A stretch of DNA of 56,798 nucleotides from Bacilli bacterium. Lineage in GTDB: Bacteria > Bacillota_I > Bacilli_A > RFN20 > CAG-826. The stretch is taken from assembly GCA_024408435.1 (NCBI GenBank), contig JAKSVA010000001.1, positions 1 through 56,798 of the forward strand. Reading direction: 5' to 3'. The notes below the pieces were generated by a model. That model did not search any database, had not been told where the DNA came from, and saw only the letters and a list, made by a program, of their open reading frames with translations. A program made the translations under genes and the position numbers. Below, one piece after another: positions 11,125 to 38,301 of this stretch. Within the stretch, counting starts at the first letter, position 1, and every line of letters begins with the position of its first letter.

Positions 11125-11520
11125 TTACCAGATGTAAGCGAGAACTTCCCCGCCTACTCCGAGTGCGCGAGCTTTCGTATCAGTCATTACCCCTTTTGAA
11201 GTGGAGATAATCGCGATGCCTAAACCTTTTAAAACACGTGGTAAGTGATTGGTATCACTTGTCACCCGTAAACCTGGTTTAGAAATCTTCTTGAGACCGC
11301 TGATGACTCGCTCTTGTTTTGGACCATACTTTAAAGTAATGGTTAATTCTTTCTTCACTTTATTCTCACTAACTTTATAGTCAGTAATAAAACCTTCTTC
11401 TTTCAAAATCTTGGTGATTTCAACTTTCATTTTGCTCGAAGGCATTGACACCGTTTCGTAACGTAAAGCATTCGCATTACGAATCCGGGTGAGCATATCA
11501 GAAATTGGATCCATTAACAT
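11125..11520 (-). CDS. rpsH: 30S ribosomal protein S8
   Basis: [13 protein letters not shown]...ISKPGLRV...[14 protein letters not shown]...GGEVLAYIW. Confidence 0.97.
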
Positions 11521-17730: not shown

Positions 17731-18540
17731 TTACTTAGCCTCCTTTTTGACTTCTTCTTTCTTTGGAGCAGCTTTAGGCGCTTCTTTCTTCACTTCAGGT
17801 TTTGCTTCTACTTTCGGAGCTTCAGCTTTTACTTCAGCGGCTTTAGGTGCCTCTTTCTTACTAGAAAGATCCACTAAGTTCTTCACTTGTTGTGGTTTAC
17901 CTAATTGCGTGCGAATGGCGCTTCTAATCTTGACTAAAGATTGTTTTGTGCCTGGGATTGCACCTTTCACTAAGATGTAACCTTTCTCGGCATTTGATTC
18001 GACCACTAAAAGATTAAGAACAGTCACTTGTTCAAAGCCACGGTGACCACTCATCTTCTTACCGGGTAAAACACGGTTATTACAACGACCATTGTTCGCG
18101 AAGCTACCAACTTGACGGTGATAACCTGAACCATGTCCTTTAGGACCAATGGTGTGATGATAACGTTTAATAGTGCCGGTATAACCTTTACCTTTACTTG
18201 TGCCGATAACATCAACAATGTCGCCAGTTTTAAATAAACTTGCGTCAAGTTTTGCACCAACATTTAAATTAAGACTATCTAAGTCTTTACCACTTACTTC
18301 ACGGTAAAATTTCGCTAAAGGAGTGTTGCTCTTCTTAGCGATTCCTTTCTCGCATTTATTCGCGCGAGATTCTCTCTTATTATCATAACCAACGACATAA
18401 GCTTTATAGCCATCTTTTTCGCTAGTTTTGATTTGACTAACTATGTTAGGGAGTACTTCAATCACACTAACAGCGTATTGGGTGCCATCAGTCGCGAAGA
18501 TCTGTGTCATACCTAACTTACGTCCGATTAACTGTTTCAT
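17731..18540 (-). CDS. rplC: 50S ribosomal protein L3 with a ~55-aa KEAPK-repeat C-terminal extension
   Basis: GRKLGMTQIF...GTSKGKGYTGTIKRYHH..GPKGHGSGYHRQVGS is L3. The tail is KKEAPKAAEVKAEAPKVEAKPEVKKEAPKAAPKKEEVKKEAK. Confidence 0.96.
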   Translation of the reverse strand: MKQLIGRKLGMTQIFATDGTQYAVSVIEVLPNIVSQIKTSEKDGYKAYVVGYDNKRESRANKCEKGIAKKSNTPLAKFYREVSGKDLDSLNLNVGAKLDASLFKTGDIVDVIGTSKGKGYTGTIKRYHHTIGPKGHGSGYHRQVGSFANNGRCNNRVLPGKKMSGHRGFEQVTVLNLLVVESNAEKGYILVKGAIPGTKQSLVKIRSAIRTQLGKPQQVKNLVDLSSKKEAPKAAEVKAEAPKVEAKPEVKKEAPKAAPKKEEVKKEAK

Positions 18541-18559
18541 CGTTATTTACCTCCCTTAC

Positions 18560-18871
18560 TTATAGTTTGATATCAATATCAACTCCACTAGGTAAATCAA
18601 GTCGACGTAATGTGTCGACAGTTTCCTTAGTTGGATTAGCGATATCGATTAATCTCTTATGGGTGCGAATTTCAAATTGTTCGCGGGCGTCCTTATATTT
18701 ATGAACCGCGCGTAAAATCGTAAAGACTTGTCGGTCCGTTGGTAATGGAATTGGGCCAACTGCTTTCGCACCTGTCTTTTTCGCCGCTTCTAAAATCTTT
18801 TGCGCCCCAAGATCAAGAATCTTGTGGTCATAAGCTCTGAGGCGGACTCTGATTACTTTTGTTTTTGCCAT
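18560..18871 (-). CDS. rpsJ: 30S ribosomal protein S10
   Basis: [14 protein letters not shown]...GPIPLPT...[28 protein letters not shown]. It is the first gene of the cluster, with a GGAGGG RBS upstream. Confidence 0.97.
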
Positions 18872-19005
18872 GAATTTCCCTCCTTAAATCTTTTACTTTA
18901 GGCGATACTAGCTTCGCTATAATCGAATTCCCTGACACCGTCTCATGACAACGCCTATTCGTGTGTCAGCAACCTCGATTAGTCCTCGCGAGTGCAAGTA
19001 GAAAT

Positions 19006-19034
19006 AACATACTCCCTTTAAATGTACGTGTCAA
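19006..19034 (-). promoter_or_regulatory. Candidate sigma-70-type promoter of the S10 operon
   Basis: On the minus strand, TTGACA (19034..19029) is followed by a 17-nt spacer and TATGTT (19011..19006). This leaves a ~135-nt leader before the rpsJ ATG. Confidence 0.5.
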
Positions 19035-19078
19035 ATAGTTTTTATTCGCCTATACGCGCGAACATATAAGCCTTAAGT

Positions 19079-19351
19079 TTAATATTTATAGTTTTTAGGT
19101 AAGTCTTTAAGACCGTTATAATCAAGACGAGCTTCAATTCTCTTAACAACCTTAGTTAAATCATTGACTGCGATAACAAGCTTATCAACGGTCATACCTA
19201 ATTGATCTAATGTGTATTTATTCTTTTTCTTAGGTTTCATAACCTTAACTCGTCTTCCTTCATTTACATAATACACTACAAAACGCACATTAGAAGGTGA
19301 ATTTTCTAATAAACGTTTAAATTCTTTTTGGGTTATGTATTTACGATACAT
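19079..19351 (-). CDS. Hypothetical small basic protein (90 aa)
   Basis: The ORF has a strong SD (AAAGGAGGC) 5 nt upstream of the ATG. I recognised no family motif. It lies between the S10 promoter and the accessory region. Confidence 0.55.
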   Translation of the reverse strand: MYRKYITQKEFKRLLENSPSNVRFVVYYVNEGRRVKVMKPKKKNKYTLDQLGMTVDKLVIAVNDLTKVVKRIEARLDYNGLKDLPKNYKY

Positions 19352-19354
19352 AAA

Positions 19355-19413
19355 AGCCTCCTTTTAATTTCAGGCATAATTGCCCTTACTATGTACTTCG
19401 TAAAAAGGAGGCT
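19355..19413 (-). promoter_or_regulatory. Possible RBS-sequestering stem upstream of the 90-aa ORF
   Basis: A perfect 11-bp inverted repeat, AGCCTCCTTTT (19355..19365) and AAAAGGAGGCT (19403..19413), is separated by 37 nt. In the minus-strand mRNA the 3' arm is the Shine-Dalgarno sequence itself. Confidence 0.35.
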
Positions 19414-19476
19414 AAAACGCTCGCTTATTTTTCTATATTTACTCAGTAAATATAAAAAGTTATATAATACTGCCAT

Positions 19477-19617
19477 ATGAATAAATATAAGAAAATAAAT
19501 AGAGAAGAATATAGAAAAGGTATGTTAGAGGCATCTAAAGATCCTGAATTCATTAAACGTAACGAAGAAGTTATGAAAGAATTCGAAGGAATTGATGCTA
19601 GGATTAAAGGTGAATGA
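19477..19617 (+). CDS. Small ORF (46 aa) sharing the peptide motif EYRKGMLEA(S/T)KDPEFIKRNE with the C-terminus of the AbiEi-like protein at 40149..40892
   Basis: My own translation is MNKYKKINREEYRKGMLEASKDPEFIKRNEEVMKEFEGIDARIKGE*. It is below the ORF-track length cutoff. A 63-nt stretch is 56/63 identical to the inverted segment 40164..40226, and 5 of the 7 differences are synonymous. TATAAT at 19463..19468 sits just upstream of the ATG with no SD, so the transcript may be leaderless. Confidence 0.4.
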   Translation: MNKYKKINREEYRKGMLEASKDPEFIKRNEEVMKEFEGIDARIKGE

Positions 19618-19631
19618 TAGCTATATTTTAC

Positions 19632-19729
19632 AAATGTTGGAAAAATGCAAAAAACATATGTTAAAAATCTTGGAAAAGTGCAAAAAATTACAAAATAAAT
19701 CTTGGAAAAATGCAAAAACGGTATATAAT
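19632..19729 (+). repeat. Three tandem 32-33-bp units (AAAT[G/C]TTGGAAAA[A/G]TGCAAAAA...) upstream of the COG1373-type ATPase gene
   Basis: The units start at 19632, 19665 and 19697. The last unit provides TTGGAA (19702..19707), a 16-nt spacer and TATAAT (19724..19729), followed by GGAG and the ATG at 19753. Confidence 0.7.
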
Positions 19730-19752
19730 AACAATTACTATCGGAGATAACT

Positions 19753-21048
19753 ATGCTATTTAGAAAAGTTACTAATAATATCGATGAGTGGTATAAAGGC
19801 AAGAAAACTGCTTTATTAATTGATGGCGCTCGACAAGTCGGCAAAACGACCATTATTGAAGAATACCTTAATAAAAACAAGATCGATTATGTTGAATTTA
19901 ACTTAATTGAGAATCAAATAGCGCGTGATGCATTTAATACTTCTATTGATGCAAACGATTTATTACTTAAATTATCCGCTATTTCTAAAAAACCTCTCAA
20001 AAAAGGAAAAACTGTAATATTTATTGATGAGGCCCAAGAACCAAATGATGCCATTACACCGATTAAATTTTTAGTTAAAGAAGGGAGTTATCGTTTTATC
20101 TTTTCTGGTTCGCTATTGGGAGTAAAGATGAAAGATATTCAATCTGCGCCAATTGGATCTATGACAGTAATTAATATGTATCCAATGGATTTTGAAGAAT
20201 TTTTAATTGCTAATTCAACCAATAAAGACACAATAGATTATTTAAAAGAATGTTTTTATAAATTAAAACCAGTCGACAATGATATCCATAGGCAAATAAT
20301 GAATATATTCAATAAATATTTAGTCGTAGGTGGTTTGCCAAAAGCAGTAAGAGAATATGTTGAAACCAACAATATGAGTAAAGTTAGAGACGCTCAGTAT
20401 GATGTTGATAAAGGCTATTTAATGGATGTTGCAAAATATAAAAAGGAAGAGAAATTATTAATTGATGATATATATGAATTAATACCAAGCGAACTAAATG
20501 CCAAAAACAAACGATTCATTATTAAATCACTGGATAAAAAAGCACGATATTATAATTACGAATCAAGCCTTGTTTGGTTTAAAAACAGTGCAATTGGTCT
20601 ATTCACTTACACGGTAGACGAACCAGTATATCCTCTTAGAGCAAGCGTTAAAAGACAATTATTTAAGTTATTTTTGTGTGATACAGGATTACTAGTACAT
20701 AAATTAGCTAAGGATACTGCTGCAAAAATTCTAACCAATCATTTAAATATAAATTATGGAGCTATTTATGAATCGGTTGTTGCCCAAGAATTAACCGCCC
20801 ATGAGATTCCACTATATTATTACAATAATAAAAAACAAGGTGAAGTCGATTTTTTAATTGAAGACGGAGACCAAATCATACCAATAGAAGTAAAAAGTGG
20901 AAAAGATTATGATCGCCATGTAGCGTTAGATAAACTATTAGAAACTAAAAACTATTCTATAGATAGGGCCTACGTATTATGTAACGAAAACATTAAAATT
21001 AAAGAAAAAAAGATATACCTACCGATTTATTTTGTGATGTTTATATGA
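19753..21048 (+). CDS. AAA+ ATPase of the COG1373 type (AAA_14 N-terminal domain, DUF4143-like C-terminal domain)
   Basis: 431 aa. It has Walker A DGARQVGKTT, Walker B VIFIDEAQ, and a C-terminal GEVDFLIEDGDQIIPIEVKSGKDY (a D...E.K nuclease-fold-like motif typical of this family). Confidence 0.8.
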   Translation: MLFRKVTNNIDEWYKGKKTALLIDGARQVGKTTIIEEYLNKNKIDYVEFNLIENQIARDAFNTSIDANDLLLKLSAISKKPLKKGKTVIFIDEAQEPNDAITPIKFLVKEGSYRFIFSGSLLGVKMKDIQSAPIGSMTVINMYPMDFEEFLIANSTNKDTIDYLKECFYKLKPVDNDIHRQIMNIFNKYLVVGGLPKAVREYVETNNMSKVRDAQYDVDKGYLMDVAKYKKEEKLLIDDIYELIPSELNAKNKRFIIKSLDKKARYYNYESSLVWFKNSAIGLFTYTVDEPVYPLRASVKRQLFKLFLCDTGLLVHKLAKDTAAKILTNHLNINYGAIYESVVAQELTAHEIPLYYYNNKKQGEVDFLIEDGDQIIPIEVKSGKDYDRHVALDKLLETKNYSIDRAYVLCNENIKIKEKKIYLPIYFVMFI

Positions 21049-22544
21049 TGAAAATTAATATTGATGAATTTATTAAGAGTGTTGATAATAACATTAAAAA
21101 TTATGCTATAGATTACGAAAAAATCGGTGTTGACTTTAAAATTGCTACTCAAAATCAAATTAATATTCTTTATGAGCGAACGCTTTCCTCAATAACTAAT
21201 TATTTTATTTACTCTGAGTTCCAAAACTTAAAAGCTGATGTAGGATTAGGAGTAAACGAGATAAAAATATTTTTTGAAAATGGAATTAATGCTTTTGATT
21301 TTTCCACTCTCAAAAAAGAAGTAGGATTAAAACCTAAAAGTAAATCAGATAGAGAAATGTGGGAAAACTACTGTGTCCCAGATGGCTTTTTTGTTGTTAA
21401 CAACGTTTTAAACGAACCGCTTTATCTATTTGTCGAGTATAAGCTGAATCAAGATTTAGTTTATATTGATTTAGCATTAGATTACCTAAAATATAAGGCG
21501 TATACATATAAAAGCCATTTAAAATCTGTTTTTGCGTTTGTCATATTTGATAAAAAAGAAAAGTACCCAACAATTATTAATTCAGGCCCCTCTTATTTTC
21601 AAATACTTGACAAAGCGATTTTACCAACTATGGATATGGAAAAAAGAGTGTATATATATAAAAATCTAGAAATTAAAGATAAAGATGATGATAGCGATTT
21701 TAGTTTTAATGAGTTAAGTGACTCAATACAACAGTTTGTCGAATTGTCTAATTTATCATCTGATATTCTATGTCATGAAGACAAAATTGGATTAATTGAA
21801 GATAATAACATTTTCATAAACTCTATGGAAAAATTTAACAAACGTGTTATTAATGCTCAGATTATTAGAGACAATTATAACTATATAGTAGATATATGGA
21901 ACGCTTGCAAAAAGAAAAATATATTTGATGGTATTTATGAAGACTTCAATTTACACTCCAAAGAAGAATTAACAAATGAAATAATAATAGATGAAGGCTC
22001 ACATTACTCAGCGTGTTTTGATGAAAGCATTAATTTAAAAGCGAGACTTCGAGCGATGGAAGATGGCATTAGAGGTTCTTCTTACGCATCTTTAAACGTA
22101 ATAGTTCTTATTGATTACTTCAACGATTATTTCGGTATTGATAAAACCATTATGCCTATGTATGGTAAAACAAAAATCGGAAAGAACATTAAAGAAAAAG
22201 AGGAGGTAGATTTCAATAAAACCGCTATTAGACAAAAAAGAAAAATAGATGAACATTATGGATCCGATTCACAAAAAAGCAAGAAAATTAAAAAATTAAC
22301 ATATGCATTGATGTATTATATAAAAAATTTATACGAAGCTATCTATGATATAGGAGAAGACAATACAATTGGTGAATATAACGAAGCCTATGAAACTTAT
22401 ATTCTCACAAACCAGTTTAATGAAAGGGTTGAAAAAATCAGTCGACGTTTCAAATACACAAAACCAATAAGATTAAATATTGATTTAAAAAATACTAGAG
22501 CCAAACTATTAAACCTAGTTGAACATATTATTACGCAAATATAG
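21045..22544 (+). CDS. Hypothetical protein with a candidate PD-(D/E)xK nuclease core, translationally coupled to the upstream ATPase
   Basis: 499 aa. The ATGA start/stop overlaps the ATPase gene. The motif VPDGFFVVNNVLNEPLYLFVEYKLNQD fits hPD-x(n)-ExK. The remainder is a long helical, Lys/Glu/Asp/Asn-rich region with no motif I recognise. Confidence 0.6.
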   Translation: MMKINIDEFIKSVDNNIKNYAIDYEKIGVDFKIATQNQINILYERTLSSITNYFIYSEFQNLKADVGLGVNEIKIFFENGINAFDFSTLKKEVGLKPKSKSDREMWENYCVPDGFFVVNNVLNEPLYLFVEYKLNQDLVYIDLALDYLKYKAYTYKSHLKSVFAFVIFDKKEKYPTIINSGPSYFQILDKAILPTMDMEKRVYIYKNLEIKDKDDDSDFSFNELSDSIQQFVELSNLSSDILCHEDKIGLIEDNNIFINSMEKFNKRVINAQIIRDNYNYIVDIWNACKKKNIFDGIYEDFNLHSKEELTNEIIIDEGSHYSACFDESINLKARLRAMEDGIRGSSYASLNVIVLIDYFNDYFGIDKTIMPMYGKTKIGKNIKEKEEVDFNKTAIRQKRKIDEHYGSDSQKSKKIKKLTYALMYYIKNLYEAIYDIGEDNTIGEYNEAYETYILTNQFNERVEKISRRFKYTKPIRLNIDLKNTRAKLLNLVEHIITQI

Positions 22545-22547
22545 CAA

Positions 22548-23273
22548 TTACAAAATTATCCTAATTTTGCGCGGCAATGACCAAAAAACTTGATATTTGT
22601 AATTGTTTTTGTGCTTCAAAAAAGCATCGCTTATTTCTTTTTTTGCTTCCTTTCTAAACTCAAGTGGCAAATGAATAATTAAATTATTGATACTGCTACT
22701 TAAATCTTTTTTGGCCTCGCTCCCTGGTGTGACATTATATAAATATTTGTGGTCAAGAATAAATTTATTATGCCCAATTTTATTTCTAAGTGACACTAAG
22801 GCTTTTTTATTTGCCTTTGTTTTAACATTTGGAAAAAGCATAGCGAAATCATTATTTGGCAAATGATATGCTACATCAACTAAATTACTAAAAAGATCAT
22901 ATGATAATAAATCAAAAGTTTCGTTGCTGTTTTTAGCTAAGTCTCTAGCATCTTTACCTATAAATTTACTGCATCCATTAGGTAAATCTTTCTCCAGAGG
23001 ATATTTGTTAGAAATATATGCGCGTATATTTTCTTCTAAATAGCCTAAAAATTTATATAGTATTCTTCTAATGCGTTTATCATACCTCATTGTTGATGCT
23101 ACTTCGCAATAGGTAGGAGTTCTCCCTAACTTCTTACTAAGATAATTAGCAACATTAATATGCTCTTGAATTCCACGTCTATTTAAATATACTTTCGCAG
23201 ATTCTATCTCTTCTGGCTTAATTTTAACTAACTTAAAGAAACTATCGTAATCCATATCTTTGTTCCAATTCAT
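22548..23273 (-). CDS. Abi_2 (AbiD/AbiF-like) family protein, HEPN-type with an Rx4H motif
   Basis: 241 aa. SLRNKIGHNKFIL contains the R-x4-H motif. The overall layout resembles Abi_2 abortive-infection proteins. It overlaps the upstream gene by 32 nt. Confidence 0.65.
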   Translation of the reverse strand: MNWNKDMDYDSFFKLVKIKPEEIESAKVYLNRRGIQEHINVANYLSKKLGRTPTYCEVASTMRYDKRIRRILYKFLGYLEENIRAYISNKYPLEKDLPNGCSKFIGKDARDLAKNSNETFDLLSYDLFSNLVDVAYHLPNNDFAMLFPNVKTKANKKALVSLRNKIGHNKFILDHKYLYNVTPGSEAKKDLSSSINNLIIHLPLEFRKEAKKEISDAFLKHKNNYKYQVFWSLPRKIRIIL

Positions 23274-23856
23274 TAACCGTTTCTAATAATAAAGAAAAAG
23301 AGCTTTCGTCTAAAAATTTATTCTTTTTAAGCAAATAGATTTCTTTTAATTCATCAAGATGTCTCTTTCTTATTCTTCTAAACCTTCTTTGAAAATCTTG
23401 CGATTTTCTAATTTTGCACCATGAATATGAATTAGCGCCGTTTCTAACTAATTTCTGTAGCCCATCCTCAAACTCCACCATAACAGCACAATCAAAAGAA
23501 AAGCGATATCCTAATAAATTTCCAATATAACTTGTGACAACTGAAGTAGAATTATGCACTCTAACATTATCAAACTTACTTAAAGCATCATTAAAAGCAT
23601 TAACAAACAACGTTTTTAATTTAGCGGGATGTCTAATTAAATCTTCATCGCAAGATTGAATAACTAAATTGTAATCTAGATCAACACGCTTACTATTTCC
23701 GTTGGCCATCAAAAGCTTAGTATATCCGCTTCCTATAAGAAAAAATTGAAATGTTAAATATTCATTTAACAATTTTTGAACTTCATTAATTCTTTTAACA
23801 CAAAAATCATTTAATGCGGTTCTAGTTTTTTTATTAGAAAAGTAAATATAAGACAT
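23242..23856 (-). CDS. Minimal Pol-beta-fold nucleotidyltransferase (MNT/SMODS-like)
   Basis: 204 aa. FLIGSGYTKLLMANGNSKRVDLDYNLV carries the GS...DxD signature, and a third acidic residue sits in the strand FSFDCAVMV. There is a basic C-terminal helical region. The start is 2 nt after the ATPase stop. Confidence 0.55.
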   Translation of the reverse strand: MSYIYFSNKKTRTALNDFCVKRINEVQKLLNEYLTFQFFLIGSGYTKLLMANGNSKRVDLDYNLVIQSCDEDLIRHPAKLKTLFVNAFNDALSKFDNVRVHNSTSVVTSYIGNLLGYRFSFDCAVMVEFEDGLQKLVRNGANSYSWCKIRKSQDFQRRFRRIRKRHLDELKEIYLLKKNKFLDESSFSLLLETVNELEQRYGLR

Positions 23857-23858
23857 AA

Positions 23859-25418
23859 TTAGTTGTTTTCAACTTTTGACCAAATTTTACCAAACAACGA
23901 TTGCGCCCCATCACCTAATTTAATAACTTTTTTATTATCCAAAATATTTCGAACGTTTTCGGAATAAGAATTTTGCTTATCAAAAGCAATAAAAATTTGC
24001 TTATCAAAATTAGAATAGCAAGCTAAAATACGCTCGATCACATCGTCTTCGATTTGTTTAAACAAAGGAGTGTCGTGAATAAAAAACGGCAATTTTGTTA
24101 AGCCTAAGATAGAAATGTCGAATACAATAATTCCTTTGAAACTTACACCTGTCCCCGTATCATTCTTGGTGGAAAAAGTATAAGAGGATTTATCAAACAA
24201 TAATTTAGGATGTGAATAATTATTACCATATATAGAAGCATCTATGTTCTCGATTTTTGAATTAATTTGGCTAGAAAGTCTAGATAATAGAGCGGACTTA
24301 ATTTCTTTTAGATCTTCGTGCATTTTATCATTATCGTCTTTTAAATTATGGTATATTTCATAAACCTTATTTTCAGAACTAATCGATTCAATTGAGTTAG
24401 AAAGTCGTAAATATTCATTTACAGCACCGGTTATAGGTGAAGAAAAATTTGTTAAATCATTAAATTTAGTTAAATAATCAGATAAAAGACTTTCATATTC
24501 ATTAATTTCCTTATTAGTCTCTTCTAATTGAAGCTTCATTTCTTGCTTAAAAATGCGCGAAATTAAAAAATGAAAATTTTCCACTTCTTCCAAACGCTTT
24601 ACGTTTGTATTAGGGAAATATTTCAACAATTGCTCAAAATCTTTTTCACTTTTCGAAAATTTGTTAGAAAGATTACTTTCGATTTTTCGTAATTTAATTT
24701 TTGATTTAGCCTTTAATCTTTTAGTGTACACAATTTTATCTTTTAAAGAAAGTGCTTCGTCTGAAAGAATTGAATCTAAGGAGCAATTACTTCCCTCGAT
24801 TTCTTTTCTTACTTCAGTAATTTTTTTCTTTAATTCAGATATTTTGGTTTTATTTTTTTCATATTCAGTTTTAATGATTAGGGAACTGTTTAGAAGACCA
24901 AATTTATTTGCATTCTTAAATGTAACAAACTTTTTTTGAGATTCATTTGCTTTTTGTTCATATTCCTTTATTTGCGGATACAACCCAAACAACCTTAATA
25001 AAGAATTTATAGCATTGGAAAATTTGTCTTCCTGAACAACGTGAAGCGGTTTTACAGGATTTAAATTGTCCTTTCCATATATTCTACTATATAGGCCAAC
25101 TGCATCACGAAAAGTGGTGCCTAATTCATTTAAATTATAAAAATTATTTAGCATATTTTTATAATCTTCTAGCGTGATAGTTTTGATTTTATTTTTGCTA
25201 GAATCGCACTCCCAAACAATATTTTTAGCATTGTTTGAACGGCAAAAATAGAATCTCTTTTCCTCAAAAAGAAAAGTAAAAAATATCTCACATTCACCTA
25301 CATTTAATCGTATATCGTCGCTCAACGCAAAATCTTCGCCACCAAAAGCAAAATCTATGACAAGTAGTAAAGTTGACTTGCCAATAGAATTCTTTCCATC
25401 TTCTTTACCTAACACCAC
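23859..25418 (-). CDS. ABC-3C-type ABC ATPase (DUF2326-like); the N-terminal ~22 codons lie in another frame behind an A6 tract
   Basis: It has Walker A GKNSIGKSTLL, a long coiled-coil insert, and a C-terminal FFIHDTPLFKQIEDDV block typical of DUF2326. The track start is a GTG. The RBS-preceded ATG at 25483 is out of frame (see findings). Confidence 0.75.
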   Translation of the reverse strand: MVLGKEDGKNSIGKSTLLLVIDFAFGGEDFALSDDIRLNVGECEIFFTFLFEEKRFYFCRSNNAKNIVWECDSSKNKIKTITLEDYKNMLNNFYNLNELGTTFRDAVGLYSRIYGKDNLNPVKPLHVVQEDKFSNAINSLLRLFGLYPQIKEYEQKANESQKKFVTFKNANKFGLLNSSLIIKTEYEKNKTKISELKKKITEVRKEIEGSNCSLDSILSDEALSLKDKIVYTKRLKAKSKIKLRKIESNLSNKFSKSEKDFEQLLKYFPNTNVKRLEEVENFHFLISRIFKQEMKLQLEETNKEINEYESLLSDYLTKFNDLTNFSSPITGAVNEYLRLSNSIESISSENKVYEIYHNLKDDNDKMHEDLKEIKSALLSRLSSQINSKIENIDASIYGNNYSHPKLLFDKSSYTFSTKNDTGTGVSFKGIIVFDISILGLTKLPFFIHDTPLFKQIEDDVIERILACYSNFDKQIFIAFDKQNSYSENVRNILDNKKVIKLGDGAQSLFGKIWSKVENN

Positions 25419-25473
25419 GTTTAACCCTTTATGAAAAGTGATACTAGGTGTGCTAAATTTTTTACAAAAATTT

Positions 25474-25701
25474 CTAAGAGCATAAATACACCTCCGATGT
25501 TTCTTGATTAAGATTTATTTTCCCGAGATAGAATAAACAGTCAAGAACTTCAACAAAATCATTAAAATCCGAAAAATTTCGTTTTACAGACTCATATAGA
25601 TTTGTCAAAGGCAAAGGATTCGATGATAAAAATCCTAAAACAATATTAAACTTACTTATTAAGCTTTCCCTATAAGTAACAACTTTATTTGGTAATTTCA
25701 T
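25474..25701 (-). CDS. ABC-3C middle component (small helical protein)
   Basis: A 75-83-aa ORF lies between the HNH effector and the ATPase. The ATG at 25701 is preceded by AGG and overlaps the HNH gene by 17 nt. Its stop overlaps the ATPase ATG. The assignment rests on size and position. Confidence 0.55.
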   Translation of the reverse strand: MKLPNKVVTYRESLISKFNIVLGFLSSNPLPLTNLYESVKRNFSDFNDFVEVLDCLFYLGKINLNQETSEVYLCS

Positions 25702-26503
25702 TAAAAACCTCGCAATTTTGAACAAAATACGAAACTACTGCTTCGCATGCAGATTTTGAAGAGGATATAACACTAATTTTATTCATTAACCAATTAACCA
25801 TTTCGTTAAAAATCCATTCTAAATCCACCGTCTTTTTTGAGAGGCCTATAAAACAAGATTTAAATTGTGAAGCAATTAAATCAAAATTAACGCCTTTATT
25901 TTCCTCTTCAGAAAAAATATTTTTAATGTAGTAATAATAATTTCTAACATTATCAATAATTTTTTGTTTTAATAGATGGCACGAATCAGGTATTTTATTA
26001 TTTATAGAAATTGGCTTTAATTTCAATTCCTCCAATTGACTACAGTCAATAGTCGAAAGAGCTTTTATAATTTTTTCGATGTCATCTTCCAAATTCATTG
26101 AATTAGATATTTGTTGCAATGTAGCACGCTCAATATATTTTTCCTTTAAACTTACCATCTCCATATATTCTTCTGCGGTTGTTGCTGAATCGTAAGCCGC
26201 ATGGCAATCAAAGCATAAAATTATTAAATTATCCAAAGATTCACTATTGTCGCCTAATCTTTTTAATTTATAAATTCTGCTATAAAAATCAACAGAAGGG
26301 TTGCATGGAAAGATATGCGCAATTTCATACAATTTTACACTTTTAGTTTTTTTCTTTAACGGAACGAGAAGTTTACCACATTTAGGGCAATAAAAATGTA
26401 CTTCATTTAGTAGAATCTTTTCTTCATTGCCTGCTTTATCTTTTCTACCTACTAAATATTTATCGCTTTCTATCAATTTTTTAATTTCTGATGAATCCAT
26501 CAT
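25685..26503 (-). CDS. HNH endonuclease fused to an ABC-3C effector C-terminal domain
   Basis: 272 aa. CPKCGKLL...YEIAHIFP...LDNLIILCFDCHAAYD gives CxxC, H, N and CxxCH of the beta-beta-alpha-metal HNH finger. The C-terminal ~150 aa is helical and ends with ACEAVVSYFVQNCEVF. Confidence 0.75.
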   Translation of the reverse strand: MMDSSEIKKLIESDKYLVGRKDKAGNEEKILLNEVHFYCPKCGKLLVPLKKKTKSVKLYEIAHIFPCNPSVDFYSRIYKLKRLGDNSESLDNLIILCFDCHAAYDSATTAEEYMEMVSLKEKYIERATLQQISNSMNLEDDIEKIIKALSTIDCSQLEELKLKPISINNKIPDSCHLLKQKIIDNVRNYYYYIKNIFSEEENKGVNFDLIASQFKSCFIGLSKKTVDLEWIFNEMVNWLMNKISVISSSKSACEAVVSYFVQNCEVFNEITK

Positions 26504-26626
26504 TTTTATTTTATAATAAAAAATATTATTTGTTAAAAAACGTCATTATTATATATGATAACAATTATTACTAAATAAAAAAGTTCATCACATCGCTTTA
26601 TTATGAACTTATATCGCAAGATGGAA

Positions 26627-26936
26627 TCTTCTCCCATGATGACAAAGTCATGATAGGTTACATAACTATCTATTAATACACTTATTAACTAAATAATAAT
26701 TATCATTAAATGAATCGATTTACCACTAACCCCCACGTTGTCATAGACAAGGTGGGTACTCTTCTCCCATGATAACGAAGTTAGGATGAGTTAACTAATA
26801 TTATTAATAATGTCTATTAACTAAGAAATATATTATTCCCACTAACTAAAGTTATTTATTACTAACAAACATCTTGTTGTGGCAACAAGAGGATGGACAA
26901 TTCACTCCACGATGTCAAAGACAGGGTGGACCCGGT
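26627..26936 (+). repeat. Two tandem units (133 and ~177 bp) of an imperfect-hairpin repeat family, junction copy 1
   Basis: Both units begin TCTTCTCCCATGAT (26627 and 26760). Hairpins are CCCATGATGAC-AAA-GTCATGATAGG (26633..26657), CCCACGTTGTC-ATA-GACAAGGTGGG (26732..26756), TCTTGTTG-TGGC-CAACAAGA (26872..26891) and CCACGATGTC-AAA-GACAGGGTGG (26907..26929). Confidence 0.8.
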
Positions 26937-27141
26937 TTTTATACTAACTTATCTTTTCAAATTTCTATTCTATTGCAAAATAGTTTCGGAGATTTTTACT
27001 CCATTTTACACGGTTCATTATCATATTTACTTGCATTTTAATGATCACCTACTCAAACTTATTTTGATTAATCTAAATGTAAATGATAGTATCACCAAAA
27101 TAGTTTAAAAAAGAGTAATAAAATATGCTAATATATTAAGT

Positions 27142-28950
27142 ATGAAATTTGTTCTTCAACACGTTGTTTTTCCTTCTATAAAAAATATTGGTAACATAAG
27201 CGATTTATATTTTAAAAGCAATAGGAAAGTTATTTTTGATTACACAAAAAATGAACCAATACGTATGTCAAAACAACAAGAGTTAGAGTTTGCTACATAC
27301 TTTAATTGCTTTTCACAACAAAAATGGATTTTATATACTGATATTGGAAATATCAATCTATCCATTGAATTAAAAGGACAATTTTCTATTTCTTTATTAC
27401 ATCTATATAAAAATGGCCTCAACAAGAGTTGTTGTGAAATTTTATCAACAAAAAAAATAGTTTCTGACACTAGAAAAATTTTTGATTTGAATTTTTCATC
27501 TTTTGACTCGACTGGAATTCTTGCATTTAAAATCACATCGCTAGTAGACGGATCGTTATATTATGATTCATATTTCTACACTAATATCGATGAGCAAAAA
27601 ATTAAAAACATTAATTTAGGTATAGGAATATGCACATACAAAAGAGAAAAATATGTAACACAAAATATATCTTCATTGACTAATGCAATAAAACTAAATA
27701 ATTGTTTTTCTAATTTACAAATATTTATTGCGGATAATGGAAATACATTGCAATCGTTTAATAACGACCATATCCATTTATTTAAAAACAGAAATACTGG
27801 TGGATCAGGCGGTTTTACACGCTGCATGATAGAAGCCATAAATTATAATAAAAAAAACAATCACCCAATTACTCATCTTATTCTCATGGATGATGACATC
27901 ATTTTTGATTGCGAATCCATTTTTAGAACTCATGCAATGTTGTCCATACTTAAAGATGATTACAAAAAAGAGTTTGTTGGTGGCGCAATGTTTTTCTTTG
28001 ATAAGCCATACATTCAGCACGCATCTGGCGAATTTTGGGTCGGTGATAGATGCGAAAGTTTTATTGATACATACAATAGAAACCTTGACATGAGAAAAAT
28101 TTCGTGTGTTCTTGATAGTGAAAAACCACTTTATTCCAATTATCAAGCTTGGTGGTACTGTGCTATTCCTATGTCCATTGTCTCTTACAAAAATTTGCCA
28201 ATGCCTTTTTTCGTAAAAAGCGATGATATTGAATATAGTATAAGAAACAAAAATCACACTATATTACTTAATGGAATTTGTGTGTGGCATGAATCGTTTG
28301 AATCAAAATATTCCCCAAAAAATGAATATTATACAGTAAGAAATTATCTAATAACCGCAAGTGCTCATAAAATAAAATTGGATAAAAGAAGGATTAAGTC
28401 TTTTTTTCTAAGGTATGTAAAACACTACATATGCAATTATAAATATTTAGAAATTAAATATTTTTGTTATGCGCTAAATGATTTTTTACGTGGAGTTGAT
28501 TACGTTAAATCAATAAATATTGAGCAATGCCACAAAGTAAAATTAAATAAAGGTTATAAAATAATGCATGTCAACGATTTACCTTTTCATTTTTCAAAAG
28601 CAGAATACTGGAAAACAATAAAAGAGGATGAGAAACATAAAGTTCCATTCTTATTCGCGAAATACACTATCAACGGATTACTAATCCCATCCCATAAGTA
28701 TGCAGTCTTAGGTGTATGGGGTGGCTCATATTATCAAACTTATAGAAAAAAATTTTTAATTAGATATGATCCCCATACTAACACCGCCTTTATATTACGC
28801 AGAAAACCTTTATTAAGTTTCAAATCATTATTGTTAGCATATAGAACTGTGAGAAAAATAAACAAATATTTTGATTATGCTTATAAGGATTTTTCTAAAA
28901 ATTGGAGGAAATTAATTTCTTACGATAATTGGAAAAAACATTTAAGTTAA
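27142..28950 (+). CDS. Family 2 glycosyltransferase, GlfT2-like architecture
   Basis: 602 aa. It has NRNTGGSGGFTRCM, LILMDDDIIFD (DxD) and QAWWYCAIPMS...FVKSDDIEYSIR. It is a paralogue of 33540..34592. Confidence 0.75.
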   Translation: MKFVLQHVVFPSIKNIGNISDLYFKSNRKVIFDYTKNEPIRMSKQQELEFATYFNCFSQQKWILYTDIGNINLSIELKGQFSISLLHLYKNGLNKSCCEILSTKKIVSDTRKIFDLNFSSFDSTGILAFKITSLVDGSLYYDSYFYTNIDEQKIKNINLGIGICTYKREKYVTQNISSLTNAIKLNNCFSNLQIFIADNGNTLQSFNNDHIHLFKNRNTGGSGGFTRCMIEAINYNKKNNHPITHLILMDDDIIFDCESIFRTHAMLSILKDDYKKEFVGGAMFFFDKPYIQHASGEFWVGDRCESFIDTYNRNLDMRKISCVLDSEKPLYSNYQAWWYCAIPMSIVSYKNLPMPFFVKSDDIEYSIRNKNHTILLNGICVWHESFESKYSPKNEYYTVRNYLITASAHKIKLDKRRIKSFFLRYVKHYICNYKYLEIKYFCYALNDFLRGVDYVKSINIEQCHKVKLNKGYKIMHVNDLPFHFSKAEYWKTIKEDEKHKVPFLFAKYTINGLLIPSHKYAVLGVWGGSYYQTYRKKFLIRYDPHTNTAFILRRKPLLSFKSLLLAYRTVRKINKYFDYAYKDFSKNWRKLISYDNWKKHLS

Positions 28951-36635: not shown

Positions 36636-37067
36636 ATGAAAAAATTAATAAAATTTATTAATAAACATTTTTCTAGTTTAATTCGACTTATTAAAGAAAT
36701 TTTTTGTGGCTTTGTTGCATCGGCGGTTTTTGCGTTGTTCAGTTGGTTAACAACGTTAATAAATCCTCTAAAAGATTATCCGATTATAAGCGCGATTTCT
36801 ACTTGGACGTCAATTGTTATATTATTGTTATTTTCGTTATACGGCATTACCGATTATATTTTTAATGTGACTCCCGCCTTAGTGAAATCTTTTAGAAATA
36901 TGAAAAGAAAAGTTCGCAAGAAAAATAAGATTGACTATTTTAATGGAAATCCAGACGCTTTACCTGGATCTAGTGGAAAACCATTTGAGGATATTATTGA
37001 TGATTTAGAAAAAATGGATATCGATGATCCAAAAAATAAAGTAGGAGGCGACGACAATGAAGATTGA
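36636..37067 (+). CDS. Small membrane protein (2-3 TM, acidic C-terminal tail), first gene of the DGQHR cluster
   Basis: 143 aa with hydrophobic segments at about residues 20-45 and 50-75. The C-terminus is DIIDDLEKMDIDDPKNKVGGDDNED. Its 3' end contains the GGAGG RBS of the next gene and overlaps it by 11 nt. Confidence 0.6.
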   Translation: MKKLIKFINKHFSSLIRLIKEIFCGFVASAVFALFSWLTTLINPLKDYPIISAISTWTSIVILLLFSLYGITDYIFNVTPALVKSFRNMKRKVRKKNKIDYFNGNPDALPGSSGKPFEDIIDDLEKMDIDDPKNKVGGDDNED

Positions 37068-38205: not shown

Positions 38206-38301
38206 GTATCTTCTCTAATGTAGAACATCGATTTGAATGAGAGAGGGATGCACATTCACTACGCAAAATAAGCAAGCTATCATATGAAGTAGGAGAACAT
38301 T

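What the first reader, a model, noticed from the sequence alone, without database searches (positions are those of the whole stretch)
19753..22544. COG1373-type ATPase translationally coupled to an uncharacterised 499-aa protein with a PD-(D/E)xK-like core
Seen:
- The two ORFs overlap by ATGA (21045..21048).
- The ATPase has Walker A/B motifs and the C-terminal D...E.K block of DUF4143-type proteins.
- The partner has VPDGFFVV-x13-LFVEYK, which fits hPD...ExK. This is followed by ~350 aa of helical sequence that I cannot assign.
- The pair sits at the edge of a defence-rich region and is preceded by a triple tandem repeat.

Established: COG1373 ATPases are widespread and of unknown role.

Inference: an NTPase plus nuclease two-gene layout embedded among Abi/ABC-3C genes is a reasonable candidate for an undescribed defence pair.
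Basis: partly seen in the sequence, partly recalled or inferred. Interest (0 to 1): 0.65.

Follow-up and report, generated by a model that had tools for sequence, protein, structure and literature searches.

The report
Unpaired nuclease gene beside PDC-S01 ATPase
The two overlapping genes are real, but they look like neighbours rather than partners: a very common ATPase-nuclease of unproven function, followed by a rare, unannotated predicted nuclease that sits on its own among anti-phage genes in gut Firmicutes.

Summary
A 431-aa AAA_14/DUF4143 ATPase (19753..21048) overlaps a 499-aa ORF (21045..22544) by ATGA, downstream of a non-random triple repeat.

The two-gene interpretation is not supported.
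- The ATPase is a full-length match to PADLOC's single-gene candidate PDC-S01 (E 2.7e-172). It carries its own PD-(D/E)xK domain and has at least 7,973 homologue clusters.
- The 499-aa protein belongs to a tiny family: 122 clusters among 1.84 billion representatives, with no Pfam, PADLOC or NCBIfam model.
- Across about 16 independent lineages, this family sits next to the ATPase only in the window and one 81%-identical relative.
- In another close relative (ATPase 86% identical), homology stops exactly at the ATPase stop codon and a different gene follows.

The nuclease guess is supported.
- E71, D112, E130 and K132 are invariant in 72 sequences.
- A pLDDT 92.9 model has the alpha-beta-beta-beta-alpha-beta core.
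- Foldseek hits are weak but almost all are PD-(D/E)xK nucleases. The roughly 280-aa helical C-domain matches nothing.

Every locus with context carries defence or toxin-antitoxin genes: PD-T4-6, PDC-S20, PDC-S73, PDC-M42, AbiE, Abi_2, CBASS, a type III R-M system and a TIR protein.

Best reading: two independent, co-transcribed genes, the second being a new stand-alone defence-island nuclease candidate.

The parts
19477..19617 (+). Small ORF (46 aa, MNKYKKINREEYRKGMLEASKDPEFIKRNEEVMKEFEGIDARIKGE) upstream of the ATPase promoter. Function unknown.
   Evidence: Read from the sequence. The reading frame and stop position are conserved in L023. It is absent from L010. No Pfam-type, NCBIfam, PHROG or PDB match.
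19632..19718 (+). Three direct repeats of AAATSTTGGAAAARTGCAAAAA (period 32-33 bp). Probable operator or promoter array of the ATPase gene.
   Evidence: TRF: period 33, 3.0 copies. Three matches against 0.00 expected. Three copies are conserved in L010 and L023, with the core better conserved than the spacers.
19702..19729 (+). Sigma-70-like promoter: -35 TTGGAA lies inside repeat copy 3, then a 16-nt spacer and -10 TATAAT. SD GGAG is at 19743-19746.
   Evidence: Best promoter-like site in the scan, 10 of 12 matches. TATAAT and GGAG are invariant in the three-locus alignment. The scan as a whole is not enriched over shuffles, so this site rests on conservation.
19753..21048 (+). 431-aa AAA_14 P-loop ATPase fused to a DUF4143 PD-(D/E)xK domain. 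Member of PADLOC single-gene candidate PDC-S01.
   Evidence: Pfam AAA_14 and DUF4143. PDLC04792, E 2.7e-172, full length. At least 7,973 homologue clusters. dN/dS 0.035-0.055 against L010 and L023.
19825..19848 (+). ATPase Walker A, GARQVGKT.
20014..20037 (+). ATPase Walker B, VIFIDEAQ.
20839..20901 (+). The ATPase's own nuclease motif, GEVDF...IEVKSG (D...ExK).
   Evidence: Weak Cas4 and YraN hits over aa 333-401. DUF4143 is listed as a PD-(D/E)XK family in PMC3424549.
21045..22544 (+). 499-aa ORF (498 aa if it starts at the second ATG, 21048). Member of an unannotated family of about 490-aa proteins.
   Evidence: No Pfam, PADLOC or NCBIfam hit for any of the 72 full-length members, and no PHROG hit for the window protein itself. 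dN/dS 0.08-0.09 against L010.
21048..21665 (+). N-terminal domain (aa 1-206, numbered from the second Met). Predicted PD-(D/E)xK nuclease fold.
   Evidence: AF2 model with pLDDT 92.9: H43-60, b64-70, b113-120, b123-133, H139-152, b159-167. Foldseek top hits are PD-(D/E)xK nucleases but all have E > 0.001.
21258..21491 (+). Invariant residues: E71 (21258), D112 (21381), E130 (21435), K132 (21441), D145 (21480), K148 (21489). The first four are the putative active site.
   Evidence: Invariant in 72 sequences that average 23% column identity. Coordinates.
21705..22541 (+). C-terminal, mostly helical domain (aa 220-498). No detectable relative and no invariant residues. Proposed specificity or sensor domain.
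   Evidence: Model. No PDB fold or sequence match. All invariant columns lie in the N-domain.
22548..23273 (-). Context only: convergent 241-aa gene (weak Abi_2 match; contains an RNKIGH motif that fits the HEPN Rx4H pattern). Its stop is 3 nt from the partner's stop. It travels with the pair in L010.
   Evidence: The 79.6%-identical DNA block 19632-23352 is shared with L006/L010. 81% aa identity.

Best explanation
The locus holds two self-sufficient genes that are co-transcribed, not an obligate two-component system.

Gene 1 (19753..21048) is an ordinary member of the very abundant AAA_14-DUF4143 family (PADLOC candidate PDC-S01). It is a P-loop ATPase fused to its own PD-(D/E)xK nuclease. 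It is expressed from a promoter whose -35 element lies in the last of three conserved 32-33-bp repeats.

Gene 2 (21045..22544) belongs to a rare, undescribed family that moves through defence islands of gut and rumen Firmicutes as a single-gene cassette. In this lineage it landed directly behind the ATPase. It has no Shine-Dalgarno sequence and is probably translated by termination-reinitiation.

Inferred mechanism of gene 2:
- The N-terminal domain is a metal-dependent PD-(D/E)xK phosphodiesterase, with E71, D112, E130 and K132 as the active site.
- The fast-evolving helical C-terminal domain of about 280 aa provides target recognition or keeps the nuclease off until an infection cue appears.
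- The protein then cuts invading, or after activation any, nucleic acid.

Shown: gene structure, family membership of gene 1, conservation pattern, predicted fold, neighbourhoods, and separability of the two genes.

Inferred: nuclease activity, the anti-phage role, and the role of the C-domain.
For: Separability of the two genes:
- The partner family is adjacent to an AAA_14/DUF4143 gene only in the window and in L006/L010, which is 81-85% identical. One further locus (L001) has such a gene 2.2 kb away with three genes between.
- All-against-all comparison of neighbours found no recurrent neighbour family across divergent loci.
- L023 has an ATPase 86% identical plus the same small ORF and triple repeat. 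Homology to the window (19522-21049) ends at the ATPase stop, and an unrelated gene follows.
- ATPase relatives at about 60% identity lie among housekeeping genes without the partner.
- Abundance differs greatly: at least 7,973 clusters at E<=1e-30 for the ATPase, with the search saturated. The same kind of search found 7-10 clusters for the partner, and an exhaustive profile search found 122 representatives among 1.84 billion.

Neighbours are complete systems in their own right:
- PDC-S01 here.
- PD-T4-6 kinase, PDC-M42A/B, PDC-S20 and PDC-S73.
- AbiEii; Abi_2.
- A SAVED protein with an AGS_C cyclase fragment, ResIII with an N6_N4 methylase, a CAP12 TIR protein, an NB-ARC/TPR protein, AAA_21 with RloB, and a PLD-helicase with DUF3427.

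Nuclease:
- Invariant E71, D112, E130, K132.
- pLDDT 92.9 model in which D112 opens strand 2 and ExK lies in strand 3 of an alpha-beta-beta-beta-alpha-beta core.
- Foldseek lists are dominated by R.SwaI, HincII, Hjc, TnsA, Cas4-like ACE1, bunyavirus endonucleases and phage PD-(D/E)XK proteins.

The gene is real: dN/dS is 0.08-0.09.

Not a phage or plasmid gene as far as the collections show: no hit in IMG/VR, INPHARED phages or PLSDB.
Against: - The 4-nt overlap, the missing Shine-Dalgarno sequence and the absence of a predicted terminator or convincing internal promoter mean the two proteins are made together here. The arrangement is kept in L010.
- No Foldseek hit reaches E<=0.001, so the fold assignment rests on motif, topology and the composition of the hit list.
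- The defence role is guilt by association only.
- Most context loci are short metagenome contigs. Three of them lack enough upstream sequence to exclude an upstream ATPase (L016, L019, L028).
- PDC-S01 itself is unvalidated. One representative gave no protection against T4, T5 or T7.
Confidence: 0.6

Rival explanations
1. A genuine two-gene system in this lineage. The PDC-S01-type ATPase-nuclease senses or translocates on nucleic acid and works together with the 499-aa nuclease. The two are produced in fixed ratio by translational coupling.
For: - ATGA overlap with no Shine-Dalgarno sequence before gene 2, in both the window and L010.
- The shared promoter and repeat block, the ATPase and the partner move together as a 3.7-kb block at 79.6% DNA identity.
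- Both genes are under purifying selection.
- L001 has an AAA_14/DUF4143 gene 2.2 kb from a family member.
Against: - The window and L010 are one lineage, so this is a single evolutionary observation.
- L023 keeps the promoter, repeats and ATPase but not the partner.
- About 15 other lineages lack the ATPase next to the family member.
- Thousands of ATPase homologues lack the partner.
- The ATPase already has its own nuclease domain.
- PDC-S01 is among the commonest PADLOC calls, so one nearby copy in L001 is expected by chance.
Confidence: 0.13
2. The 499-aa protein is a restriction endonuclease in the classical sense. It is either a type IV (modification-dependent) enzyme or the R subunit of an R-M system, and it cleaves DNA directly according to sequence or modification rather than being switched on by infection.
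For: - The best PDB fold hits include the type II enzymes R.SwaI (E 0.039) and HincII.
- In L013, L014 and L015 the gene lies 45-46 nt downstream of an N6_N4 DNA methylase and a ResIII helicase.
- L010 has a C5 DNA methylase 1.5 kb away.
- L008 lies beside an MrcB_N/NOV_C gene.
- A stand-alone nuclease without a methylase fits type IV logic.
Against: - No methyltransferase lies near the gene in the window, where the defence cluster spans 19.4-26.5 kb, or in most other loci.
- The C-domain is helical with no recognisable modified-base reader fold and has no invariant residues.
- L013-15 are a single lineage.
- The Foldseek E-values are not significant.
Confidence: 0.17
3. The 499-aa protein is not an immunity gene. 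It could be a toxin-like or selfish addiction nuclease, or a DNA-repair or recombination nuclease, that accumulates in the same variable regions as defence genes.
For: - Neighbours include many toxin-antitoxin-type modules: AbiE, a RES-like ORF, HEPN-like genes, HipA and Fic.
- Copies are sometimes damaged. L008 is truncated and L010 has a homopolymer frameshift.
- There is no experimental evidence for any member.
Against: - No conserved antitoxin-like small neighbour was found.
- There are no homologues on plasmids or phages.
- No integrase or transposase was found among the window ORFs scanned.
- Purifying selection is strong.
- Repair nucleases are normally widespread and syntenic, unlike this family, which was found in 6 of 185,579 species genomes.
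Confidence: 0.1

Closest known systems
PDC-S01 (PADLOC-DB v2 single-gene phage defence candidate; AAA_14 + DUF4143, COG1373)
   Same: The window ATPase matches model PDLC04792 end to end (E 2.7e-172). It has the same AAA_14 plus PD-(D/E)xK architecture. Like other members, it occurs alone in close relatives.
   Different: Nothing distinguishes it as a protein. Locally, it is preceded by a conserved 3x repeat promoter array and overlapped by a downstream gene. The family's defence role is unproven: it is a guilt-by-embedding candidate, and one tested representative was inactive against T4, T5 and T7.
ATPase plus separate PD-(D/E)xK nuclease defence pairs, e.g. HEC-02 (ABC ATPase + NERD), as described in bioRxiv 10.1101/2024.01.29.577857
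   Same: The layout matches at first sight: a P-loop NTPase gene followed by a PD-(D/E)xK gene in a defence island.
   Different: The ATPase here is of the AAA_14 type, not ABC, and already carries a nuclease. The pairing is not conserved across homologues of either gene. Conserved pairing is the feature that defines such systems.
Type II restriction endonucleases R.SwaI and HincII, and other PD-(D/E)xK nucleases (Hjc, TnsA, Cas4-like ACE1, bunyavirus cap-snatching endonucleases)
   Same: The predicted alpha-beta-beta-beta-alpha-beta core carries acidic residues and an ExK in strand 3. These proteins dominate the Foldseek lists for both models.
   Different: There is no significant sequence or profile similarity, and all Foldseek E-values are above 0.001. 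The protein has an extra helical C-domain of about 280 aa of unknown fold. There is no cognate methyltransferase in the window.
Single-gene defence cassettes that sit between other systems (e.g. PD-T4-6, PDC-S20, PDC-S73)
   Same: The genomic behaviour is the same: one gene with variable neighbours, always among defence genes, often the last gene of a co-directional run with a short gap.
   Different: The protein family is unrelated, is in no defence database scanned here, and is much rarer.

Membership tests
PDC-S01 (ATPase gene) | Full-length match to a PDC-S01 profile HMM | tested here: met
   PDLC04792: E 2.7e-172, aa 1-431 against profile positions 1-433 of 452. Six further PDC-S01 models also hit.
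PDC-S01 (ATPase gene) | AAA_14 P-loop domain with Walker A/B, fused to a DUF4143 PD-(D/E)xK domain | tested here: met
   Pfam PF13173 (1.5e-25) and PF13635 (1.5e-29). Motifs located. DUF4143 is classed as PD-(D/E)XK in PMC3424549.
PDC-S01 (ATPase gene) | Functions as a single gene, meaning it occurs without a fixed partner | tested here: met
   L021, L022 and L023 relatives (58-86% identity) have unrelated downstream genes.
PDC-S01 (ATPase gene) | Anti-phage activity | not testable with these tools
   The literature describes an untested candidate. One representative was inactive against T4, T5 and T7 in E. coli B.
PD-(D/E)xK nuclease superfamily (499-aa protein, N-domain) | Conserved acidic residues and (D/E)xK signature | tested here: met
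   E71, D112, E130 and K132 are invariant, and E43 and R44 are at least 90% conserved, in 72 sequences with 23% mean column identity.
PD-(D/E)xK nuclease superfamily (499-aa protein, N-domain) | alpha-beta-beta-beta-alpha-beta core, with D at the start of strand 2 and ExK in strand 3 | tested here: met
   AF2 model, pLDDT 92.9, pTM 0.73: H43-60, b64-70, b113-120, b123-133, H139-152, b159-167. This is a predicted structure, not a solved one.
PD-(D/E)xK nuclease superfamily (499-aa protein, N-domain) | Significant structural or profile similarity to an established member | tested here: inconclusive
   Best Foldseek E-values are 0.039 (PDB) and 0.0027 (BFVD), and none reaches 0.001. The top of each list is nevertheless almost entirely PD-(D/E)xK nucleases. 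hhalign against the DUF4143 nuclease domain gave probability below 1%. The searches used the whole protein because no domain-only search was possible.
PD-(D/E)xK nuclease superfamily (499-aa protein, N-domain) | Metal-dependent phosphodiesterase activity | not testable with these tools
   Needs purified protein.
Two-gene defence system (ATPase + 499-aa protein) | Co-occurrence of the two families conserved across divergent homologues | tested here: not met
   Adjacent in 1 of about 16 lineages of the partner family. Absent next to ATPase relatives at 58-86% identity.
Two-gene defence system (ATPase + 499-aa protein) | Same strand and operon-like spacing | tested here: met
   4-nt overlap in the window and L010, with no terminator-like site between or after the genes.
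Defence-island gene (499-aa family) | Homologues recurrently flanked by known defence genes | tested here: met
   Every locus with flanking genes has defence or toxin-antitoxin genes within a few kb. This is qualitative: no genome-wide enrichment statistic or control set was computed.
Type II R-M restriction enzyme (499-aa protein) | Adjacent cognate DNA methyltransferase | tested here: not met
   No methyltransferase domain among the window ORFs scanned around the gene. One is present only in the L013-15 lineage and near L010.

The most novel reading that the evidence does not exclude
The 499-aa family is a portable nuclease effector that is not autonomous. Instead it is recruited by whichever sensor gene lies directly upstream. 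It is often the last gene of a co-directional run with a very short gap. The upstream genes seen are an AAA_14-DUF4143 ATPase here (-4 nt), an nSTAND3/PDC-S73 NTPase (48 nt), a SAVED protein of a CBASS-like operon (28 nt), a type III-like methylase/helicase (45-46 nt), and a small ORF behind an AAA_13 ATPase (1 nt). Under this reading its variable helical C-domain would be an adaptor that docks onto different sensors.
Probability: 0.08. Interest if true: 0.7.

Novelty: new variant of a known kind. Interest (0 to 1): 0.4.

Why it matters
If the 499-aa family is an autonomous anti-phage nuclease, it adds a new single-gene system with a helical domain of unknown fold. It would come from uncultivated gut and rumen Firmicutes, which are under-represented in defence catalogues. 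None of the libraries scanned here (Pfam, PADLOC, NCBIfam, PHROGs) would currently detect it.

The negative result also matters. A 4-nt overlap inside a defence island is not evidence of a functional pair, and PDC-S01-type ATPases should not be assumed to need, or to mark, adjacent effectors.

The conserved triple-repeat promoter gives a handle on how one PDC-S01 gene is regulated. That family is among the commonest 'defence' calls and has no demonstrated function.

Tried and rejected
- **Alternative genetic code.** I considered TGA read as Trp, which would fuse the two ORFs. Rejected: all ribosomal and island ORFs are intact under code 11, and the L023 ATPase ends at the same residue with TAA.
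- **Shared origin of the two nuclease domains.** hhalign of the partner N-domain against the ATPase's DUF4143 domain gave probability below 1%. Only the trivial FIEYK/IEVK strand aligned.
- **Profile search of PDB sequences with the 72-sequence alignment.** It returned only AFV1 ORF99 (E 7e-4, 70 residues, catalytic K not conserved) and noise. I treat this as marginal. The ORF99 paper was not available.
- **Family libraries.** Pfam, PADLOC and NCBIfam scans of all 72 members, and a PHROG scan of the window protein, gave nothing meaningful.
- **Mobile-element origin.** tblastn against phage and plasmid collections and an IMG/VR scan found no homologues.
- **Structured RNA.** An Rfam scan of 18500-27200 found no hits.
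- **Promoter and terminator scan.** The number of promoter-like sites equals the shuffle expectation (30 against 28.2), and no terminators were found. The only promoter I accept is the one supported by conservation.
- **A recurrent small partner of the family.** All-against-all comparison of neighbours found none.
- **Widening the family.** A second word-indexed search with the 72-sequence alignment added only four short contigs.
- **First structure model.** With 7 sequences it reached only pLDDT 69, and it was superseded by the 72-sequence model.
Full report
**1. What is in the sequence**

The two ORFs are exactly as reported: 19753..21048 (431 aa) and 21045..22544 (499 aa), both on the + strand. 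The junction reads ...GTG ATG TTT ATA TGA TGA AAA... The ATPase stops with TGA at 21046-21048. The next gene can start at ATG 21045 (4-nt overlap) or ATG 21048 (1-nt overlap, the start used by the database entry P0001, 498 aa).

No Shine-Dalgarno sequence precedes this start, either in the window or in the closest relative. Several distant homologues do have GGAGG-like sites. No terminator-like site was found anywhere in 18800-23400. Promoter-like sites are no more frequent than in shuffled sequence (30 against 28.2). Co-transcription and coupled translation are therefore likely.

The region lies just beyond the start of the S10 ribosomal-protein operon (minus strand, up to 18871). It is at the edge of a low-GC stretch: about 28% from 20 kb to 46 kb, against 38-43% in the ribosomal-protein operons at 4-18 kb.

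**2. The ATPase is a known thing**

It has Pfam AAA_14 (E 1.5e-25) and DUF4143 (E 1.5e-29). It carries Walker A GARQVGKT, Walker B VIFIDEAQ and a GEVDF...IEVKSG nuclease block. It matches PADLOC model PDLC04792 of the single-gene candidate PDC-S01 over its full length at E 2.7e-172. DUF4143/COG1373 was classed as a PD-(D/E)XK family of unknown function in 2012 (PMC3424549).

- PDC-S01 comes from the 'guilt-by-embedding' screen, whose 145 candidates were released untested (bioRxiv 10.1101/2024.01.29.577857).
- It is reported as the fourth commonest defence call in prokaryotes (PMC12988326).
- One randomly chosen representative did not protect E. coli B against T4, T5 or T7 (bioRxiv 10.1101/2024.09.26.614923).
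- A homology search with the window protein saturated: 7,973 of the 8,000 scored candidates had E<=1e-30.
- No solved structure is detectable by sequence.

**3. The 499-aa protein is a rare, unannotated family**

The window protein has no hit in Pfam, PADLOC, NCBIfam or PHROGs.
- A word-indexed search of 5.8 billion proteins found 7 relatives.
- An exhaustive profile search of 1.84 billion cluster representatives found 122 at E<=0.001 and 55 at E<=1e-30. The full-length ones are almost all about 450-530 aa with a single matched stretch, and none shows an added domain.
- None of 72 full-length members hits Pfam, PADLOC or NCBIfam meaningfully.
- A scan of one genome per species (185,579 species) found it in 6 genomes, all Firmicutes MAGs. 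They are labelled Bacilli from horse faeces, Erysipelotrichaceae (RUG275), Bacillales (UBA2753), Candidatus Onthoplasma faecipullorum, and two uncultured Clostridia.
- It was found in 5 metagenome loci.
- It was not found in IMG/VR, INPHARED phages or PLSDB plasmids.
- The gene is under purifying selection. dN/dS against the 81%-identical orthologue is about 0.08-0.09, although dS is saturated.

**4. Is it a nuclease?**

In the 72-sequence alignment (23% mean column identity), the only invariant columns are E71, D112, E130, K132, D145 and K148. E43, R44, Y131, L142 and F162 are at least 90% conserved. All of these lie in the N-terminal 165 residues.

With this alignment AlphaFold2 gives mean pLDDT 92.9 and pTM 0.73; with only 7 sequences it gave pLDDT 69. 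The model has three parts:
- An N-domain (aa 1-206) with helices 5-34 and 43-60, strands 64-70, 113-120 and 123-133, helix 139-152 and strand 159-167. This is the alpha-beta-beta-beta-alpha-beta order of the PD-(D/E)xK core, with D112 opening strand 2 and E130-x-K132 inside strand 3.
- A short low-confidence acidic linker.
- A mostly helical C-domain (aa 220-498).

Foldseek found no match at E<=0.001 in PDB or BFVD. In all three searches, however, the top of the list is almost wholly PD-(D/E)xK nucleases:
- R.SwaI (E 0.039), HincII, Hjc, TnsA and Cas4-like ACE1.
- CinB and bunyavirus cap-snatching endonucleases.
- A Halogranum virus PD-(D/E)XK protein (E 0.0027) and herpesvirus UL24.

The C-domain matched nothing. 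I rate the nuclease fold as probable (about 0.8) but not proven.

**5. Is it paired with the ATPase?**

I collected every locus I could: with ORF maps. After merging near-identical loci (L013, L014 and L015 share a 94-99% identical helicase), there are about 16 independent lineages.

An AAA_14/DUF4143 gene is adjacent only in the window and in L006/L010. That locus has an ATPase 85% identical and a partner 81% identical, with the same 4-nt overlap, also downstream of the S10 gene. L001 has such a gene 2.2 kb downstream with three genes in between.

The immediate neighbours elsewhere are all different:

| Locus | Neighbours of the family member |
|---|---|
| L007 | PDC-S73/nSTAND3 upstream (48 nt) |
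| L001 | PDC-M42A/B (DUF3990 + HTH) upstream |
| L005 | PD-T4-6 kinase downstream (12 nt), inside an island with a PLD-helicase-DUF3427 gene, NUDIX, a SLFN-like helicase and MazG |
| L027 | PDC-S20/KAP NTPase downstream and a divergent Abi_2 gene |
| L011 | AAA_13 upstream and Abi_2 downstream |
| L013-15 | ResIII helicase + N6_N4 methylase upstream (45-46 nt) and NUDIX downstream |
| L018 | An AGS_C cyclase fragment and a SAVED protein upstream (28 nt) |
| L012 | NB-ARC/TPR protein and a CAP12-type TIR protein |
| L017 | YobI ATPase and AAA_21 + RloB |
| L016 | DUF4238 downstream |
| L019 | DUF4011 downstream |
| L008 | MrcB_N/NOV_C and DUF6339 |
| L024 | AbiEii, plus a RES-like ORF (my reading of the sequence) |
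| L028 | A protein with an RLRNSIVH HEPN-like motif (my reading of the sequence) |

An all-against-all comparison found no neighbour family that recurs across divergent loci.

The test from the ATPase side is just as clear.
- L023 carries an ATPase 86% identical, with the same upstream small ORF and triple repeat. DNA homology to the window runs from 19522 to 21049 and stops at the ATPase stop codon. The next gene, which has its own strong ribosome-binding site, is unrelated.
- Relatives at about 60% identity sit between tmk/holB and purine genes (L021), or between arsC and a tRNA synthetase (L022). Neither has the partner, and neither lies in a defence island.

It is not met for the defence-island placement of the 499-aa gene.

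**6. The upstream repeat belongs to the ATPase module**

Three copies of AAATSTTGGAAAARTGCAAAAA start at 19632, 19665 and 19697, against 0.00 expected by chance. All three are retained in L010 and L023, and the core is better conserved than the spacers. The third copy supplies a TTGGAA -35 element 16 nt upstream of an invariant TATAAT, which is followed by GGAG and the ATG.

Because L023 has the repeats without the 499-aa gene, the array is a feature of the ATPase's promoter. It is probably an operator array spaced three helical turns apart. What binds it is unknown. A 46-aa ORF (19477..19617) just upstream is conserved in frame in L023 but absent from L010.

**7. Interpretation**

The simplest account is that two self-contained genes were brought together by the usual shuffling of defence islands. 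The 499-aa gene landed immediately behind a PDC-S01 gene, lost or never had its own ribosome-binding site, and is now expressed by read-through and coupling. The 3.7-kb block 19632-23352 is shared with L010 at 79.6% DNA identity. It also includes the convergent 241-aa HEPN-like gene, so what travels together at short range is a piece of island rather than a defined pair.

For the 499-aa protein I propose a metal-dependent nuclease whose variable helical C-domain sets specificity or gates activity. The concentration of all invariant residues in the N-domain, together with a fast-evolving C-domain, is the pattern expected of a catalytic module joined to a recognition module.

Whether it restricts DNA directly (type IV-like) or is switched on by infection cannot be decided here. 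I lean towards a gated effector, because no methylase accompanies it in most loci and the C-domain has no fold typical of modified-base readers.

**8. Novelty and score**

The ATPase is already known as a candidate. The pair hypothesis fails. What remains is a real, conserved, very rare and unannotated family with a probable nuclease domain, a domain of unknown fold, and consistent defence-island placement. That makes it a reasonable new single-gene defence candidate, one of many such candidates.

- Interest: 0.4.
- Most novel reading not excluded: the family is a portable effector serving different upstream sensors. I give this about 0.08.

Noticed in passing
window 19632-19729; L010 8592-8690; L023 114-215: A triple 32-33-bp direct repeat (core TTGGAAAAATGCAAAA) is conserved in three loci. 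The third copy forms the -35 of the ATPase promoter. It looks like an operator array for an unknown regulator of a PDC-S01-type gene.
   Followed up: partly
window 19477-19617: A 46-aa ORF upstream of the repeats. Its frame and stop are conserved in L023 (MLKASKDPEFIKDNEE...), and it is absent in L010. It has no family or PDB match. It may be a small regulator or a remnant.
   Followed up: partly
window 22548-23856 (minus strand): A convergent gene pair that overlaps by 32 nt. The 204-aa protein has a GSG...DLD motif typical of minimal nucleotidyltransferases. The 241-aa protein has an RNKIGH (Rx4H) motif and a weak Abi_2 hit. Together they resemble a HEPN/MNT-type module. Against L010 the 241-aa protein is 81% identical but the 204-aa protein only 39%, so a recombination breakpoint lies near 23352. 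The 241-aa gene's stop is only 3 nt from the 499-aa gene's stop, with no terminator.
   Followed up: partly
window 23859-26503 (minus strand): A complete-looking ABC-3C system: a CTD11-HNH effector (272 aa), the MC7 middle component (83 aa) and a DUF2326/AAA_23 ABC ATPase (519 aa). It also hits PADLOC PDC-M68A/B.
   Followed up: no
window 37057-39456: A DndB-like protein (382 aa) is followed by an AAA_21 ATPase (384 aa). They sit beyond a polysaccharide-synthesis cluster (27-36 kb) and may form a second small defence patch.
   Followed up: no
L013 4873-11437; L014 3246-9462; L015 1342-7906: In one lineage the family member sits 45-46 nt behind a ResIII helicase (953-955 aa), a 118-aa ORF (called in L013 and L015) and an N6_N4 methylase. 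It might serve, or have replaced, the nuclease of a type III-like R-M system.
   Followed up: no
L010 about 11270-11285; L008 4351-5433: The L010 orthologue has a frameshift in an A-homopolymer (A8 against A6). The downstream frame is still conserved (dN/dS 0.09), so this is either an assembly error or phase variation. The L008 copy lacks the C-terminal third.
   Followed up: partly
partner aa 69-139 (window 21252-21464): The 72-sequence profile gives a marginal hit (E 7e-4) to ORF99 of archaeal virus AFV1 (PDB 3djw/3df6). The equivalents of E71, D112 and E130 align, but a valine replaces K132. This may be chance, or a viral relic of the nuclease core.
   Followed up: partly
L022 5001-9645: Two AAA_14-DUF4143 paralogues lie 2 kb apart among housekeeping genes. 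This is an odd pattern for a supposed defence gene and fits doubts about the function of PDC-S01.
   Followed up: no
window 1-56798: GC drops sharply from 38-43% in the ribosomal-protein operons (4-18 kb) to about 28% from 20 to 46 kb. The low-GC stretch covers both the defence cluster and the polysaccharide locus.
   Followed up: no
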